Shown here one piece after another: positions 61,342 to 63,972 of a DNA stretch of 64,000 bases. Within the stretch, counting starts at the first letter, position 1. Every line of letters starts with the position of its first letter. This DNA comes from an uncultured Clostridia bacterium (GTDB lineage Bacteria > Bacillota > Clostridia > TANB77 > CAG-508), in NCBI GenBank assembly GCA_948875265.1, contig CAQRYF010000001.1:440-64439 (forward strand). Reading direction: 5' to 3'. A program made the translations under genes and the position numbers. The notes under the pieces were generated by a model, which worked only from the letters and a program-made list of their open reading frames with translations, was not told the origin of the DNA and ran no database searches.

Positions 61342-62679
61342 TTAGATTAGTATTTTCCAATAACCTGTTTTATTAGAACCAACTCTTTCAAGTATATGTT
61401 TACTTTGCAATTGCTTTAAATATCTTGAAACTGTTGCTGAAGAAATTTTAGTAACCATACTTATTTCTGGAATCGTATAATATGGATTATTTATTAATGT
61501 AGCTAAAATTTGTTTTTCTTTATCATTTATCTTATCATTTATCTTATCATTTATCTTATCATTTATCGACACTTTATTTTCATAATCATATTCAAATGGA
61601 TTTTCTTTATATTTAAACGAAACTCTTAAGAAATGATCCATAAATTTAAAACAACTTTTATCATAAGCATCTAATATCCTTAATACTCCAGAGCCAATGT
61701 TTTCAATTAAATCTACGTCTTTAAATACTCTAATAAGTTCTTTATTTCTAGGTGCAGTAACGCCTTCTAAAAATTCTTCTTGTGATAATTCTTGTGGTAG
61801 TCCTCCTGCAGAAGTTATTTCAACTCTGTCCGAATACAATTCTATAATAGGACTATTTCCATAAGAATAATCATTGTGAACGATTGCATTTATAACGGCC
61901 TCTTTTAATGCTTTACTATCTATCATTTCTTGTTCTTTTCTTCCAAAATATTCTATTTTAGCATAAATAGTATTTTCAACTTTAAGTCTATCTAATATTC
62001 TATGTGTAGCTGTGATTAAACAACGATTTCCAAATTCTAAATTCTCTAATAATTCAAGTTTATTAGTACCTAAATATTTTACAAGTTTTATTGAAACAGT
62101 ATTTTCATCTGCCAATAAAAAGGCATTATAATTGTATTTACCTTCGCTAGTTAGTAAATCAAGATTTTGTAAAAAGTTATCATTTAAATTTAAATTGAGT
62201 TCCTCATAATAGATTTTTAACTGATTAAATGTTAAGTTTTGCCTAGGAGATTCAATCTCTTTTAATGTGTTTTTTATTCTCCTAGCATACATATCATCAA
62301 TCATTCTCTCTGTCATTCTTTCTTTACTACTACCAACTCTAACATAACAACCTTCTGGAGTTCTACCTTTTTTTCTTAAATAATAAGGCTTTTCTGTTCC
62401 ACTTGAAATAACAACTTTTATAACATCTTTATCATCTATTGTTTCTACAACTACATCAAATAATCCTAAAGTAGAAGGTTGTATATTGTTTTTTATTCTA
62501 TCTTTAATTTGTAATTGTGTTAAATCGACATCTTCAACTCCAGCTACTTGTCCATCTTTTCTAATTCCAATATAGATAATTCCACCTTCTTTATAGTTAA
62601 GAAAGGCAATTACTTCTTGTTCAAAATCTTCATTTAGTAGTTCTTTATTTTCAATTCTGTTTGTTTCTGTATTTTGCAT
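61342..62679 (-). CDS. AlbA_2 (Schlafen-like) / HATPase_c_4 / winged-HTH protein
   Basis: 445 aa. N-terminal RIENKELL...EGGIIYIGIRKDGQVAGV...KPYYLR (AlbA_2), central AVINAIVHNDYS...SAGGLP...RNKELIRVFKDVDLIENIGSGV (ATPase-like), C-terminal wHTH. Confidence 0.75.
   Translation of the reverse strand: MQNTETNRIENKELLNEDFEQEVIAFLNYKEGGIIYIGIRKDGQVAGVEDVDLTQLQIKDRIKNNIQPSTLGLFDVVVETIDDKDVIKVVISSGTEKPYYLRKKGRTPEGCYVRVGSSKERMTERMIDDMYARRIKNTLKEIESPRQNLTFNQLKIYYEELNLNLNDNFLQNLDLLTSEGKYNYNAFLLADENTVSIKLVKYLGTNKLELLENLEFGNRCLITATHRILDRLKVENTIYAKIEYFGRKEQEMIDSKALKEAVINAIVHNDYSYGNSPIIELYSDRVEITSAGGLPQELSQEEFLEGVTAPRNKELIRVFKDVDLIENIGSGVLRILDAYDKSCFKFMDHFLRVSFKYKENPFEYDYENKVSINDKINDKINDKINDKEKQILATLINNPYYTIPEISMVTKISSATVSRYLKQLQSKHILERVGSNKTGYWKILI
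61521..61568. repeat. 4 x 12-bp perfect/near-perfect tandem repeat inside the AlbA_2 gene
   Basis: tatcatttatct x3 plus tatcatttatcg, encoding (NDKI)n: ...INDKINDKINDKINDK... Confidence 0.9.
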
Positions 62680-62683
62680 AAAA

Positions 62684-63880
62684 TCAAACTCTCCTTTTCA
62701 TATATTTTTGTATATCATTCACACATTTTTCAAGATTATCTATATCTATAACTTGTCCAATATCATTTAATATAAAAGTTCTAAATAACAATTTTATTTT
62801 GAATAGCATATATAAATTACTCTCTCCATAAAAGCGTTTTCTTTCTTTATCTAAATGTGCAAAATAATTTCTATGATTAGTAAGTTTAGTATATATTTTT
62901 AATGTTTGTCTATCTTTACTCGTAAATATTATTTTACCTTCACTAGAATTAAGATATTCTTTCATTATATCTTTAAAATCTTTTTTTACATATTTAAAAT
63001 TTCCTTTTTTATCTTTAATAAACTTTTTCAAGTTGGATTTATGTATGCACTTATAATATCCTTCCATGCAGTTAGTAATTGTACTTAATGCGATTTCTAT
63101 AAAATACTTTACAGAAAATACATTCATATAAATATCATAGATAACATGACTATCTTTCCTTATTTTCAACCACTTCTTATAAACTTCCTTTATATTTTTA
63201 TCATTTACTTTTGCAAGTACACAACTATAACTATTATAATTATTATTACCATTATATTTACTTGAAAAAGGATAATAATAGTCAAAAGATTGCTCATCTT
63301 TGCATAAATTAATTTTATCAATCTTTAAGAAATATCCTAAATTTAAAATTAAAAATTCATAAAACAATAAAAAGCTATGCATAAATTTTTCGGTTGTCAA
63401 TTTATTATCATTTTTTAATACTACTTTATAGTATCTGTCATAAAATATAAGTTCTACATTATAGTGCATTTTCCCAATATTAAATACCATATTCTTATCT
63501 AAGCTTTCTTCTATATTAACCATATCAAATTTTTTATATTCTAGATTAACTGTTATTTTATTAATCATATATTGTTTTATATCAGCTATATAATAGTCAG
63601 TAATGTAAGCATTAAATTTTATTGATATTTTTATACAATTACCTATACTATGTTTTCCTAAATAACATTCATAAAAGGTATATTTCTTTCCATTTTTATC
63701 TTTTAAATATACTAATTTATCTATTTTTTGTTTCCACATAATATCTATAAAGAATCTATATGTTTTAGAGTTTATATCTTGCTCTATAATATTAATTTCA
63801 TTATTTGTAAAATCTATTGTTAAATCATTTACATTAATAGATTCATCATTAATGGTCAATTTATTCATATTTTTCTCCAT
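62684..63880 (-). CDS. HEPN-domain protein (ApeA/Abi-like candidate RNase)
   Basis: 398 aa, very AT-rich. Near the C-terminus, KLTNHRNYFAHLDKERK contains an R-x4-H HEPN motif of the RNxxAH type. Its stop lies 4 nt before the AlbA_2 gene start. Confidence 0.6.
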   Translation of the reverse strand: MEKNMNKLTINDESINVNDLTIDFTNNEINIIEQDINSKTYRFFIDIMWKQKIDKLVYLKDKNGKKYTFYECYLGKHSIGNCIKISIKFNAYITDYYIADIKQYMINKITVNLEYKKFDMVNIEESLDKNMVFNIGKMHYNVELIFYDRYYKVVLKNDNKLTTEKFMHSFLLFYEFLILNLGYFLKIDKINLCKDEQSFDYYYPFSSKYNGNNNYNSYSCVLAKVNDKNIKEVYKKWLKIRKDSHVIYDIYMNVFSVKYFIEIALSTITNCMEGYYKCIHKSNLKKFIKDKKGNFKYVKKDFKDIMKEYLNSSEGKIIFTSKDRQTLKIYTKLTNHRNYFAHLDKERKRFYGESNLYMLFKIKLLFRTFILNDIGQVIDIDNLEKCVNDIQKYMKRRV

Positions 63881-63972
63881 TACTTATTATTTACTAACCA
63901 CTCATAAACTTCATCTTCTGTTAATAATCCATGTTTCAATTTATTTACTTGAACTTTATCATGTTTTTCCAT
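63880..63972 (-). CDS. possible 30-aa leader ORF translationally coupled (TAATG) to the HEPN gene
   Basis: ATG 63972 gives MEKHDKVQVNKLKHGLLTEDEVYEWLVNNK. Its stop overlaps the HEPN ATG by 1 nt. An in-frame stop lies immediately upstream. Confidence 0.25.
   Translation of the reverse strand: MEKHDKVQVNKLKHGLLTEDEVYEWLVNNK

What the first reader, a model, noticed from the sequence alone, without database searches (positions are those of the whole stretch)
61342..63972. HEPN protein plus AlbA_2/ATPase/wHTH protein operon on the tRNA-Leu island: candidate defence pair
A 398-aa protein with an RNYFAH (R-x4-H) HEPN motif is followed 4 nt later by a 445-aa AlbA_2 / HATPase_c_4 / wHTH protein. It is preceded by a possible 30-codon ORF coupled through TAATG. 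HEPN RNases are recurrent abortive-infection effectors (ApeA and Abi families). AlbA_2-ATPase proteins are frequent but functionally obscure neighbours in defence islands. I do not recognise this particular pairing as a named system.
Basis: partly seen in the sequence, partly recalled or inferred. Interest (0 to 1): 0.65.

Follow-up and report, generated by a model that had tools for sequence, protein, structure and literature searches.

The report
Two RNase defence genes, not a pair
The two genes are real and both look like anti-phage RNases (an ApeA-like HEPN protein and a bacterial Schlafen-ATPase protein), but they sit side by side because the HEPN gene is one of many swappable cassettes in a cargo hotspot of a small mobile element, not because they form a dedicated two-gene system.

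Summary
On the minus strand a HEPN protein (RNYFAH; true start probably M5, 394 aa) is followed 4 nt later by a 445-aa AlbA_2/GHKL/wHTH protein.

Two details change:
- The 30-codon ORF is the 3' remnant of a deleted DUF6076 gene.
- The window holds only a 57-nt 3' copy of tRNA-Leu; the intact gene lies about 290 nt beyond the window.

The second protein is a prokaryotic Schlafen "Schlatpase-HTH", a family with published anti-phage members. Its Ex4ExK and GHKL motifs are invariant. The first is a divergent ApeA-like HEPN protein.

Relatives show an 8.4-9.5 kb tRNA-integrating mobilizable element: integrase, excisionase, DUF6076, a slot, Schlafen, MobV relaxase. The slot is empty or holds HEPN, TIR, OLD nuclease, KAP NTPase, an AAA ATPase or membrane proteins, with exact boundaries.
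- Only 4 of 21 Schlafen-bearing loci carry HEPN.
- The next HEPN clades lack Schlafen.
- Schlafen phylogeny does not track the partner.

I read this as two stacked, co-transcribed, probably autonomous defence genes in a decayed island. Both are under purifying selection. A modular "variable gene plus Schlafen" system is not excluded (about 0.2). No phenotype or expression data exist.

The parts
63879..64000 (-). 3' remnant of a deleted DUF6076 gene. It contains the 30-codon ORF 63880..63972, and the remnant continues about 40 nt beyond the window edge.
   Evidence: tblastn gives 82% identity over 28 aa to the C-terminus of the L013 DUF6076 protein. The protein ends ...KHGxLTEDEVYEWLVNNK in L007 and L013. 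At DNA level 165 nt match DUF6076 3' ends at 79-86% in more than 30 loci.
62684..63868 (-). ApeA-like HEPN protein, 394 aa from ATG 63868 (398 aa if started at 63880). It has a beta-rich N-terminal domain of about 200 aa and a helical C-terminal HEPN_Apea domain.
   Evidence: ORF. Pfam HEPN_Apea scores 26.6 bits against a cut-off of 24.4 and hits 20 of 25 family members. The family alignment and the public gene call start at M5. AF2 model: pLDDT 78.5 overall and above 90 over residues 10-110. dN/dS is 0.20-0.26.
62855..62872 (-). R337-N-Y-F-A-H342, the HEPN R-x4-H catalytic motif (398-aa numbering).
   Evidence: H336, R337, N338, F340, A341 and H342 are invariant in 25 of 25 homologues. The same HRNYF(A/D/S)H motif appears in relatives at 25-36% identity.
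62680..62695 (-). Junction between the two genes: a GGAG ribosome-binding site for the Schlafen gene inside the last HEPN codons, then the TGA stop, then a 4-nt spacer.
   Evidence: The sequence is aaaaggagagtttgatttt|ATG. The other slot cassettes shown end the same way, with a purine-rich GGAG-like ribosome-binding site within about 20 nt of the Schlafen ATG.
61342..62679 (-). Prokaryotic Schlafen 'Schlatpase-HTH' protein, 445 aa: SLFN_AlbA_2 nuclease domain (aa 5-123), GHKL-type ATPase (HATPase_c_4, aa 274-342) and a C-terminal winged HTH (aa 385-436).
   Evidence: Pfam. PHROG 12156 at 1.6e-60. dN/dS is 0.07-0.13. Architecture as described in PMC13056530 and bioRxiv 10.64898/2026.05.29.728809.
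62644..62667 (-). E5-x4-E10-x-K12, the Schlafen nuclease active-site motif Ex4(E/D)xK.
   Evidence: Invariant in 24 of 24 Schlafen genes of this element family. The motif is defined in PMC13056530.
61888..61902 (-). E260-x3-N264, the GHKL Mg/ATP-binding N-box. A G329-x-G331 box lies further on.
   Evidence: Invariant in 24 of 24 sequences. It corresponds to E314/N318 of RzAgo in bioRxiv 10.64898/2026.05.29.728809.
61520..61567 (-). Four tandem 12-nt units encoding (KIND)n, in the linker before the wHTH.
   Evidence: the repeat finder family D2. Relatives carry other low-complexity linkers and three alternative C-terminal wHTH modules.
61113..61169 (-). 57-nt direct repeat of the 3' part of tRNA-Leu(UAA), from the anticodon loop to ACCA. 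It marks the distal end (attR type) of the island.
   Evidence: It is 100% identical to L003 9526-9582 inside the intact tRNA gene. It occurs once in the window, with 0 expected by chance. Canonical elements carry the same repeat 8.4-9.5 kb apart.
56026..61112 (-). Context only. A separate 5.1-kb element is inserted at the tRNA repeat. It carries a 93-aa ORF, a large serine recombinase (663 aa), a MobV/Mob_Pre relaxase (474 aa), TnpV and a 67-aa ORF.
   Evidence: Pfam and NCBIfam. L005 lacks the element here and carries an 87-89% relative at the genuine tRNA instead.
54618..55847 (+). Context only. A tyrosine integrase remnant, 48% identical to the integrase of the canonical elements. Only a 327-aa ORF from 54864 remains open.
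   Evidence: tblastn covers query residues 1-392 over 54618-55802, but the ORF starts at 54864.

Best explanation
The locus is the stripped-down remainder of a small integrative mobilizable element inserted in the 3' end of tRNA-Leu(UAA).

Intact relatives are 8.4-9.5 kb. They read: tRNA, tyrosine integrase, HTH_17 excisionase, DUF6076, a variable slot, Schlafen-GHKL-wHTH, further cargo, MobV relaxase, tRNA repeat. In the window lineage only the last 165 nt of DUF6076, the slot gene and the Schlafen gene remain between the repeats.

The slot gene here is a divergent ApeA-like HEPN RNase. The constant gene is a prokaryotic Schlafen 'Schlatpase-HTH'.

Shown:
- the domain content and the intact catalytic motifs;
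- the exact cassette boundaries;
- the many alternative cassettes;
- the lack of partner-specific Schlafen clades;
- purifying selection on both genes.

Inferred:
- The two genes are co-transcribed. The likely promoter is a conserved TTGAAT-17-TGnTATAAT site about 190 nt upstream of the HEPN start, just outside the window.
- Each gene acts as its own sensor-plus-effector abortive or translation-arresting defence.
- The HEPN protein would dimerise through its HEPN domain, be switched on by a phage cue read by its beta-rich N-terminal domain, and cut tRNA or other RNA, as ApeA does.
- The Schlafen protein would oligomerise on ATP binding through its GHKL domain, assemble the Schlafen active site and cut tRNA. 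Its wHTH would supply nucleic-acid sensing or autoregulation.
- The adjacency reflects a defence hotspot that is refilled by recombination between the conserved DUF6076 3' end and the Schlafen 5' end.
For: Domains and motifs.

Element structure, integrase, excisionase, relaxase and tRNA repeats.

The slot:
- Empty slots hold 61 bp with a hairpin.
- Alternative occupants are HEPN, TIR_2, OLD ATPase-Toprim, an AAA_15/21 ATPase, a KAP NTPase (PADLOC PDC-S20), a phrog_9827 protein and two membrane proteins.
- Each fits between the DUF6076 stop codon and the Schlafen ribosome-binding site.

Counts among 36 evaluable DUF6076 loci:
- 4 with HEPN plus Schlafen;
- 13 with another gene plus Schlafen;
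- 4 with Schlafen alone;
- 15 without a close Schlafen.

The Schlafen tree mixes partner types, and three C-terminal wHTH types are shuffled independently of the partner.

HEPN relatives at about 25-36% identity lack Schlafen.

dN/dS is 0.20-0.26 for HEPN and 0.07-0.13 for Schlafen.

The same minimal layout and promoter-like site are shared with L016, whose HEPN is only 67% identical.

Published autonomy of the two families:
- ApeA is a single-protein tRNA anticodon nuclease (bioRxiv 10.64898/2026.01.26.701840).
- Schlafen fusions act as single genes (PMC13056530, PMC13552941).
- The Schlatpase mechanism is described in bioRxiv 10.64898/2026.05.29.728809.
Against: - There is no phenotype, RNA-cleavage or expression evidence for these proteins. 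The only 'metatranscriptomic' run behaves like DNA.
- Every cassette is packed against the Schlafen gene with 4-20 nt or an overlap, and none has a terminator of its own. That also fits a functional module.
- In two diverged lineages everything except these two genes was lost between the repeats. This could mean they are kept as a unit.
- The published screen reported defence for only two of its seven constructs, the DUF262 and Ig-like fusions. Its histidine-kinase-type Schlafen fusions, the class closest to this protein, were not among them. Autonomy of this architecture is therefore unproven.
- HEPN assignment rests on a profile score just above the cut-off plus the motif. Fold comparison gave nothing.
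- PADLOC models do not recognise the protein.
- The loci were not de-replicated, and the tree is a simple neighbour-joining tree without support values.
Confidence: 0.6

Rival explanations
1. A modular two-gene system. The Schlafen-GHKL-wHTH protein is a shared partner (common sensor, licensing factor or second effector). It works together with whichever gene occupies the slot: HEPN, TIR, OLD, KAP NTPase or a membrane protein. HEPN plus Schlafen would then be one flavour of a 'variable gene plus Schlatpase' family.
For: - Junctions are always operonic, from a 4-nt overlap to a 20-nt gap, with the Schlafen ribosome-binding site inside the cassette end.
- All close HEPN homologues keep the Schlafen neighbour across four or more backbones and two tRNA sites.
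- In the window lineage and in L016 only these two genes survived element decay.
- HEPN-Schlafen fusions exist in another HEPN family, MAE_18760 (PMC3710099).
- The published screen reported no defence for Schlafen-histidine-kinase-type proteins tested alone.
Against: - Schlafen occurs with an empty slot in 4 loci.
- Several slot genes belong to families known as self-sufficient defence genes, such as OLD and ApeA.
- Schlafen sequence and its wHTH type do not co-vary with the partner.
- More distant HEPN relatives never have a Schlafen neighbour.
Confidence: 0.2
2. The Schlafen-GHKL-wHTH protein is mainly a DNA-binding regulator or maintenance factor of the mobile element. For example, it might repress the toxic slot gene or control the element. 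On this view the HEPN protein is the only defence effector here.
For: - It has a C-terminal winged HTH that is swapped among three types.
- It holds a constant position in the element backbone regardless of cargo.
- It is the most conserved of the genes (dN/dS 0.07-0.13).
- The family was historically annotated as a transcriptional regulator (my own knowledge of COG2865).
Against: - The nuclease motif Ex4ExK and the ATPase motifs are invariant in 24 of 24 sequences. A pure regulator would not need them.
- 15 of 36 DUF6076 elements lack a close Schlafen gene, so it is not essential to the backbone.
- It lies downstream of the gene it would regulate.
Confidence: 0.1
3. This is not phage defence. 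The genes act as an addiction or stabilisation module of the island (toxin-antitoxin-like) or as weapons against competing mobile elements.
For: - The genes persist after the element lost its mobility genes.
- HEPN proteins are common toxins of toxin-antitoxin pairs (PMC3710099).
- The site is a pile-up of three mobile-element remnants.
Against: - Nothing here resembles the known antitoxin partner type, MNT.
- The slot alternatives (TIR, OLD, KAP, ApeA-like) are the typical content of anti-phage hotspots.
- Both families have direct anti-phage evidence in other organisms.
Confidence: 0.07

Closest known systems
ApeA, the single-gene HEPN anti-phage system (Gao et al. 2020; bioRxiv 10.64898/2026.01.26.701840 and 10.64898/2026.03.20.713152)
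   Same: - It has a C-terminal HEPN_Apea-type domain with an invariant R-x4-H.
- It has a large N-terminal non-catalytic region that would act as the sensor.
- It is carried in defence-type cargo of mobile elements.
- Relatives at 25-36% identity are stand-alone genes.
   Different: - It is about 394 aa, against the 583 aa given for Ec2ApeA.
- The predicted N-terminal domain is beta-rich, with weak Hcp/tail-tube-like fold hits. The solved E. coli ApeA proteins are described as predominantly alpha-helical, with N and Mid domains.
- No PADLOC model matches, and ApeA_NTD1 is hit by only 1 of 25 members, below the cut-off.
- The family is very small, with 85 clusters at E<=0.001 among 1.84 billion representatives.
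- Oligomer form, ligand pocket and RNA target are unknown.
Prokaryotic Schlafen nucleases (pSlfn; PMC13056530) and the 'Schlatpase' Schlafen-GHKL supradomain (bioRxiv 10.64898/2026.05.29.728809)
   Same: - It has a SLFN_AlbA_2 domain with Ex4ExK.
- It has a PF13749 GHKL ATPase with E-x3-N.
- It has a C-terminal HTH.
- This 'HisKinase-HTH' architecture makes up 19.2% of pSlfn proteins, and more than 90% of Schlatpase proteins end in an HTH.
- It is located among defence genes.
   Different: - The pSlfn proteins shown to defend carry other fused sensors: an Ig-like domain, DUF262, or an Argonaute core.
- No stand-alone Schlatpase-HTH has a published phenotype in the papers I read.
- Here it is a fixed flank of a cassette slot in a mobilizable element.
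Defence hotspots of mobile elements: P2/P4 hotspots, SXT ICE hotspot 5 (own knowledge: Rousset 2022, LeGault 2021) and pipolins (PMC11551731)
   Same: - Conserved flanking genes bracket a position where unrelated defence genes replace one another among otherwise similar elements.
- Exchange is apparently by recombination in the flanks.
   Different: - The host element is an 8.4-9.5 kb tRNA-Leu/tRNA-Gln mobilizable element of gut Clostridia.
- The flanks are DUF6076 and a Schlafen gene.
- Cassettes are single genes fitted to the nucleotide into an operon.
- I found no paper mentioning DUF6076.
Tn4451/Tn4453-type mobilizable transposons (context only; own knowledge)
   Same: The neighbouring 5.1-kb element has a TnpX-like large serine recombinase, TnpV and a Mob_Pre/MobV relaxase.
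   Different: It sits at the 3' end of the tRNA-Leu repeat in two different positions in two strains. No resistance gene was seen among its five ORFs, of which three match Pfam families and two do not. It is not part of the HEPN/Schlafen operon.

Membership tests
ApeA / HEPN_Apea | C-terminal HEPN_Apea domain detected by profile | tested here: met
   PF18739 scores 26.6 bits against a cut-off of 24.4, E 9.3e-6, over aa 281-375. It hits 20 of 25 family members, best E 6.7e-7. Distant relatives also hit PF18739 and PADLOC Cas13-ApeA.
ApeA / HEPN_Apea | R-x4-6-H catalytic motif | tested here: met
   RNYFAH, with R337, N338 and H342 invariant in 25 of 25.
ApeA / HEPN_Apea | HEPN helical-bundle fold seen by structure comparison | tested here: inconclusive
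   The full-length model has pLDDT 78.5, but it falls below 50 at residues 335-353. The C-terminal model has pLDDT 69.2. Foldseek against PDB gave no HEPN hit (best E 0.32), and the PDB sequence search gave none.
ApeA / HEPN_Apea | ApeA N-terminal architecture (ApeA_NTD1, or the N plus Mid domains of the solved proteins) | tested here: inconclusive
   ApeA_NTD1 is hit by 1 of 25 members at E 0.002, below the cut-off. Distant relatives hit it at 1e-4 to 6e-4. The predicted domain is beta-rich. That fits the 2013 description of ApeA-NTD1 as 'mostly beta strands', but not the 'predominantly alpha-helical' E. coli structures.
ApeA / HEPN_Apea | Recognition by defence-system models (PADLOC) | tested here: not met
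   No PADLOC family at E<=0.1.
ApeA / HEPN_Apea | Anti-phage activity as a single gene, tRNA or RNA cleavage, ring oligomer with ligand pocket | not testable with these tools
   Needs phage assays, biochemistry and cryo-EM.
Prokaryotic Schlafen / Schlatpase-HTH | SLFN_AlbA_2 domain with the Ex4(E/D)xK motif | tested here: met
   PF04326 scores 69.9 bits. E5, E10 and K12 are invariant in 24 of 24.
Prokaryotic Schlafen / Schlatpase-HTH | GHKL ATPase (PF13749) following the Schlafen domain | tested here: met
   58.1 bits over aa 274-342. E260-x3-N264 and G329-x-G331 are invariant.
Prokaryotic Schlafen / Schlatpase-HTH | C-terminal HTH | tested here: met
   HTH_24 scores 32.5 bits over aa 385-430.
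Prokaryotic Schlafen / Schlatpase-HTH | ATP-dependent oligomerisation, tRNA cleavage, phage protection | not testable with these tools
   Inferred only, from bioRxiv 10.64898/2026.05.29.728809 and PMC13056530.
Dedicated two-gene HEPN+Schlafen system | Operon organisation | tested here: met
   4-nt gap, with the ribosome-binding site inside the HEPN 3' end.
Dedicated two-gene HEPN+Schlafen system | Reciprocal co-occurrence across genomes | tested here: not met
   HEPN to Schlafen: all close homologues are paired. Schlafen to HEPN: 4 of 21 loci. HEPN clades at 25-36% identity have no Schlafen.
Dedicated two-gene HEPN+Schlafen system | Co-evolution of the partners | tested here: not met
   HEPN-linked Schlafens are scattered in the tree among TIR-, OLD- and empty-slot ones. 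The wHTH type is independent of the partner.
tRNA-integrating mobilizable element (IME) | Direct repeats of the tRNA 3' end flanking the island | tested here: met
   A 57-nt repeat, identical at both ends. Canonical copies lie 8.4-9.5 kb apart.
tRNA-integrating mobilizable element (IME) | Integrase, excisionase and relaxase inside the island | tested here: not met
   They are present in relatives. They are absent between the repeats in the window lineage, so the window holds an immobilised remnant.

The most novel reading that the evidence does not exclude
Schlatpase-HTH proteins are the commonest and still unexplained class of bacterial Schlafens. On this reading they act as a universal partner for interchangeable upstream genes. 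The DUF6076-slot-Schlafen locus would be a natural library of 'variable gene plus Schlatpase' two-gene immune systems. HEPN, TIR, OLD, KAP NTPase or membrane proteins would supply the sensing or killing, and the Schlafen-ATPase-wHTH would supply the licensing, or the roles would be reversed.
Probability: 0.18. Interest if true: 0.8.

Novelty: new variant of a known kind. Interest (0 to 1): 0.45.

Why it matters
- It corrects a tempting inference. Perfect one-way gene linkage can come from a cassette slot with a fixed flank rather than from a shared mechanism.
- It defines a compact cargo hotspot whose boundaries can be read to the nucleotide, in a family of small mobilizable elements of uncultured gut Clostridia. 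At least ten alternative single-gene cassettes occupy it, and several have no annotation (a 579-aa phrog_9827 protein, 245- and 201-aa membrane proteins, a 102-aa protein). Such a slot is a cheap source of candidate defence genes for Firmicutes.
- It offers a natural experiment for the open question of what stand-alone Schlafen-GHKL-HTH proteins do. The same gene is found with and without many different neighbours.
- The HEPN protein is a short, divergent ApeA relative with a different predicted sensor domain. That would broaden the range of cues ApeA-type RNases can read.

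Tried and rejected
- **tmRNA:** Rfam called 61113-61157 a tmRNA 3' end (22 bits against a cut-off of 47). I rejected this. The acceptor would pair A3-U70 rather than G3-U70, and the piece is an exact copy of part of tRNA-Leu(UAA).
- **Leader peptide:** the 30-codon ORF as a coupled leader peptide is rejected. It is a gene remnant.
- **DUF6076 as a third system component:** rejected as unlikely.
  - 15 of 36 DUF6076 loci have other cargo.
  - The window lineage and L016 lack the gene yet keep both others intact.
  - DUF6076 proteins are 42% identical where the HEPN proteins differ much less (dN 0.10).
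- **Fold confirmation of HEPN:** two AF2 models and two PDB Foldseek searches gave nothing usable for the C-terminal domain. A PDB profile search gave no hit.
- **N-terminal fold hits:** hits to Hcp and phage tail-tube proteins are weak (E 6e-3 in PDB, about 1e-2 in BFVD) and are kept only as a hint.
- **Expression:** the only RNA-labelled runs holding the locus are 454 'METATRANSCRIPTOMIC WXS' libraries. Their contigs reach 99 kb and cover genes and spacers evenly, so they say nothing about transcription.
- **Promoter scan:** promoter-like sites are not enriched over shuffles (36 against 32). Only the conservation of one site between two lineages gives it weight.
- **Literature:** no paper mentions DUF6076. 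No paper links HEPN_Apea with AlbA_2/HATPase_c_4.

Full report
**1. What is in the sequence**

On the minus strand, ORF 62684..63880 (398 aa) carries LTNHRNYFAHLD. ORF 61342..62679 (445 aa) starts 4 nt after its stop codon. A 30-codon ORF at 63880..63972 overlaps the first ORF through TAATG.

Pfam results:
- First protein: HEPN_Apea, 26.6 bits against a cut-off of 24.4, aa 281-375.
- Second protein: SLFN_AlbA_2 (69.9 bits), HATPase_c_4 (58.1 bits) and HTH_24 (32.5 bits).

PADLOC has no model that matches the HEPN protein. For the second protein it gives only partial matches to Argonaute-associated and wHTH proteins.

Three details change:
- **Start codon.** All 24 homologues and the public gene call begin at the residue equivalent to M5, and a GGAG lies 6 nt before ATG 63868. 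The protein is therefore most likely 394 aa.
- **The 30-codon ORF.** It is the tail of a DUF6076 gene that is intact (369-376 aa) in relatives. At DNA level 165 nt of that gene's 3' end survive.
- **The tRNA.** ARAGORN finds no tRNA in the 64-kb window. Positions 61113-61169 hold an exact 57-nt copy of the 3' part of tRNA-Leu(UAA). The intact gene lies about 290 nt past the window edge in contigs that are 99.7-100% identical to the window. A weak Rfam tmRNA match at this spot is the same tRNA-like end.

**2. Where it comes from**

The exact HEPN protein is found on contigs from mouse-gut metagenomes and on a MAG. Species-representative genomes with relatives are uncultured Clostridium and Clostridia from gut samples.

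The rest of the window is ordinary chromosome:
- glycosyltransferases;
- Ricin-B-lectin repeat cell-wall proteins;
- a Ham1-family protein;
- a PfkB kinase.

**3. The element**

Relatives whose HEPN protein is 65-71% identical show a fuller structure. It reads:
- tRNA (Leu-UAA or Gln-CUG);
- tyrosine integrase and HTH_17 excisionase on the opposite strand;
- DUF6076, HEPN and the AlbA_2 protein in one direction;
- more cargo;
- a Mob_Pre/MobV relaxase.

Where both ends are on the contig, exact copies of the tRNA-Leu 3' end lie 8.4-9.5 kb apart. This is a family of small integrative mobilizable elements.

In the window lineage the same repeats lie only 3.1 kb apart. They enclose nothing but the DUF6076 remnant, the HEPN gene and the AlbA_2 gene. 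The integrase side and the relaxase side are both gone.

Directly after the distal repeat sits a separate 5.1-kb element. It carries a large serine recombinase, a MobV relaxase and TnpV. Beyond it lies a disrupted tyrosine integrase. One strain (L005) lacks the 5.1-kb element at this position and has an 87-89% relative of it at the genuine tRNA instead. The site is thus a pile-up of three element remnants.

**4. The decisive comparison**

I fetched 54 metagenome loci encoding DUF6076 and asked what follows that gene. Of these, 36 have enough downstream sequence to judge:

| Content downstream of DUF6076 | Loci |
|---|---|
| HEPN then the AlbA_2 gene (one more is cut by a contig end) | 4 |
| A different gene or genes then the AlbA_2 gene | 13 |
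| The AlbA_2 gene directly, after 61 bp | 4 |
| No close AlbA_2 gene, other cargo | 15 |

The alternative occupants of the slot are:
- a TIR_2 protein of 258 aa;
- OLD-type ATPase-Toprim nucleases of 635 and 700 aa;
- an AAA_15/AAA_21 ATPase of 566 aa;
- a KAP-family NTPase of 452 aa (PADLOC candidate PDC-S20);
- a 579-aa protein of phrog_9827;
- membrane proteins of 245 and 201 aa;
- a 102-aa protein.

The boundaries are exact:
- Every cassette begins within about 10-35 nt of the DUF6076 stop codon and has its own ribosome-binding site.
- Every cassette ends within about 20 nt of the AlbA_2 ATG, or overlaps it, and supplies the ribosome-binding site of that gene.
- Empty slots hold a conserved 12-bp-stem hairpin.

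The last 40 or so codons of DUF6076 stay at about 80-90% identity even between proteins that are 42% identical overall. The first codons of the AlbA_2 gene are nearly invariant. Together these give the homologous flanks needed for cassette exchange.

**5. Is the pair co-adapted?**

- A neighbour-joining tree of the first 360 residues of 24 AlbA_2 proteins scatters the HEPN-linked ones among those linked to TIR, OLD or an empty slot. The window's protein is closest to a TIR-linked one.
- Three unrelated C-terminal wHTH modules, each behind a different low-complexity linker, occur with HEPN and with other partners alike.
- In the other direction, the HEPN family is small. A profile search found 85 clusters at E<=0.001 among 1.84 billion representatives.
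- Its next clades have no AlbA_2 neighbour:
  - P0034 and P0117 sit on conjugative elements beside methyltransferases and a GmrSD/HNH protein.
  - P0118 sits in a DUF6076, 194-aa protein, HEPN, integrase arrangement.
  - A 25%-identical relative is solo, close to an Abi_2-like gene by my reading of its sequence.
- The linkage is therefore one-way and positional.

**6. What the proteins are**

*HEPN protein.*
- The HEPN_Apea profile hits 20 of 25 family members.
- H336, R337, N338, F340, A341 and H342 are invariant.
- Distant relatives also hit PADLOC Cas13-ApeA, PDC-S58 and, weakly, ApeA_NTD1.
- The AF2 model is confident for a beta-rich N-terminal domain of about 200 residues. That domain gives only weak Hcp/tail-tube-like matches.
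- The helical C-terminal half is poorly modelled at the catalytic loop and finds no PDB neighbour, even when modelled alone. There is no PDB sequence match either.
- The HEPN call therefore rests on profile and motif, not on fold.
- Published work shows ApeA to be a single-protein HEPN RNase. It forms ring oligomers, is switched on by a ligand bound in a pocket between its N-terminal and HEPN domains, and cuts tRNA anticodon loops or RNA-phage genomes (bioRxiv 10.64898/2026.01.26.701840 and 10.64898/2026.03.20.713152).
- Those E. coli proteins are longer (Ec2ApeA, the reference structure, has 583 residues) and mainly helical. This protein is at best a divergent relative with a different front end. 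The 2013 HEPN survey did describe ApeA-NTD1 as mostly beta (PMC3710099).

*AlbA_2 protein.*
- It is a prokaryotic Schlafen.
- The Ex4(E/D)xK nuclease motif (E5, E10, K12) and the GHKL motifs (E260-x3-N264, G329-x-G331) are invariant in 24 of 24 sequences.
- Schlafen fused to a histidine-kinase-like ATPase and an HTH is the second commonest bacterial Schlafen architecture, at 19.2% (PMC13056530).
- The Schlafen-GHKL pair has been named Schlatpase. [quoted passage not shown]
- Other Schlafen fusions protect bacteria as single genes (PMC13056530, PMC13552941).
- In that screen only the DUF262 and Ig-like fusions were reported to protect, so the histidine-kinase-type fusions showed no defence. The function of this exact architecture is still open.

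**7. Are the genes alive?**

- Against seven relatives, dN/dS is 0.20-0.26 for HEPN and 0.07-0.13 for the Schlafen-ATPase part, at dS of 0.6-1.05.
- The stripped-down layout is shared with L016, a genome whose HEPN protein is only 67% identical. That layout is tRNA-Leu, a 246-nt spacer, the DUF6076 remnant, HEPN and Schlafen. The shared spacer includes a conserved TTGAAT-17-TGnTATAAT site about 190 nt upstream of the HEPN start.
- Both genes have therefore been kept intact long after the element lost its mobility functions.
- I could not test transcription. The RNA-labelled runs that hold the locus behave like DNA libraries.

**8. Conclusion**

The best reading, at confidence about 0.6, has four parts:
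- Two defence-type RNase genes lie in one operon.
- They are left behind by a decayed mobilizable element.
- The HEPN gene is one interchangeable cassette of a hotspot.
- The Schlafen gene is the hotspot's fixed flank, and each gene probably works on its own.

Three observations keep a modular 'variable gene plus Schlatpase' system alive at about 0.2:
- the very tight packing of every cassette against the Schlafen gene;
- the survival of exactly these two genes;
- the lack of any phenotype for stand-alone Schlatpase-HTH proteins.

A regulator role for the Schlafen-wHTH protein (about 0.1) and an addiction role (about 0.07) are less likely.

**Limits**
- The loci were not de-replicated.
- Neighbour calls rest on tblastn and on ORF lists.
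- The tree has no support values.
- All function is inferred from family membership.

Noticed in passing
window 56026-61112: A 5.1-kb element is inserted exactly at the 3' end of the tRNA-Leu repeat. It carries a 93-aa ORF, a 663-aa large serine recombinase, a MobV/Mob_Pre relaxase, TnpV and a 67-aa ORF. In strain L005 an 87-89% relative sits at the genuine tRNA instead. In DNA run X1 its read depth is 5-20 times that of the flanks, and one contig shows a joint 56119->60929 that skips 4809 nt.
   Followed up: partly
window 54618-55847 (+): A tyrosine integrase is 48% identical to that of the canonical elements, but it is open only from 54864 (327 aa). It is probably a pseudogene of a third island remnant. 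About 1.1 kb of non-coding DNA follows before the PfkB kinase gene.
   Followed up: partly
window 61520-61567; relatives L013, L025, L037: The linker before the Schlafen protein's wHTH is a 12-nt tandem repeat encoding (KIND)n. Relatives have other repeats (TDKKTTKK, TQETTQE) and three unrelated C-terminal wHTH modules, one of them Fic-like_C. This looks like domain shuffling at a slippery linker.
   Followed up: partly
L023 4571-4631; also L036, L052, L065, L025: Empty slots between DUF6076 and the Schlafen gene hold a conserved 12-bp-stem hairpin (aattttgccaat..ttggcaaaatt). The 73-nt stretch containing it folds at -13.8 kcal/mol, z -2.2. The hairpin is lost whenever a cassette is present, except in L025. 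It could be an attenuator or a recombination signal.
   Followed up: partly
window 63271-63868 (HEPN residues 5-200): The confidently modelled beta-rich N-terminal domain gives consistent but weak fold hits to Hcp and phage tail-tube or distal-tail proteins (PDB E 6e-3, TM about 0.5 to the target; BFVD E about 1e-2). A tube-protein-like sensor on an RNase would be unusual if real.
   Followed up: partly
L007 13066-15836 (also L008-L010): The tRNA-Gln copy of the element also carries a 484-aa ADP-ribosyltransferase exoenzyme-like protein and a 428-aa partner downstream of the Schlafen gene. This is a second cargo module of unknown role.
   Followed up: no
L055 and L050, 7150-10250: DUF6076 elements without Schlafen carry a different recurring cargo: a split 229- plus 104-aa protein, a 345-aa protein, a 109-aa protein and a 190-aa membrane protein. 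None was characterised.
   Followed up: no
L019 14465-14684: A second, isolated copy of the DUF6076 3' end (about 90% over 42 aa) lies near the distal tRNA repeat of one element. This suggests past recombination at this conserved segment.
   Followed up: no
window 16856-25851: Three large proteins carry 5-7 Ricin-B-lectin repeats. One also has an Amidase_3 domain and one an SH3_3 domain. They lie next to a long glycosyltransferase cluster (26642-44892) and are probably cell-wall glycopolymer binding and remodelling proteins.
   Followed up: no
L021 5402-6277 and 7824-8882: A 25%-identical, 352-aa relative of the HEPN protein (VNHRNYFAHL) lies about 1.5 kb from a 291-aa gene that I read from its sequence as Abi_2-like (NIRNYCAHYSRLYY). 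The two HEPN-type genes are separated by one 271-aa ORF.
   Followed up: no
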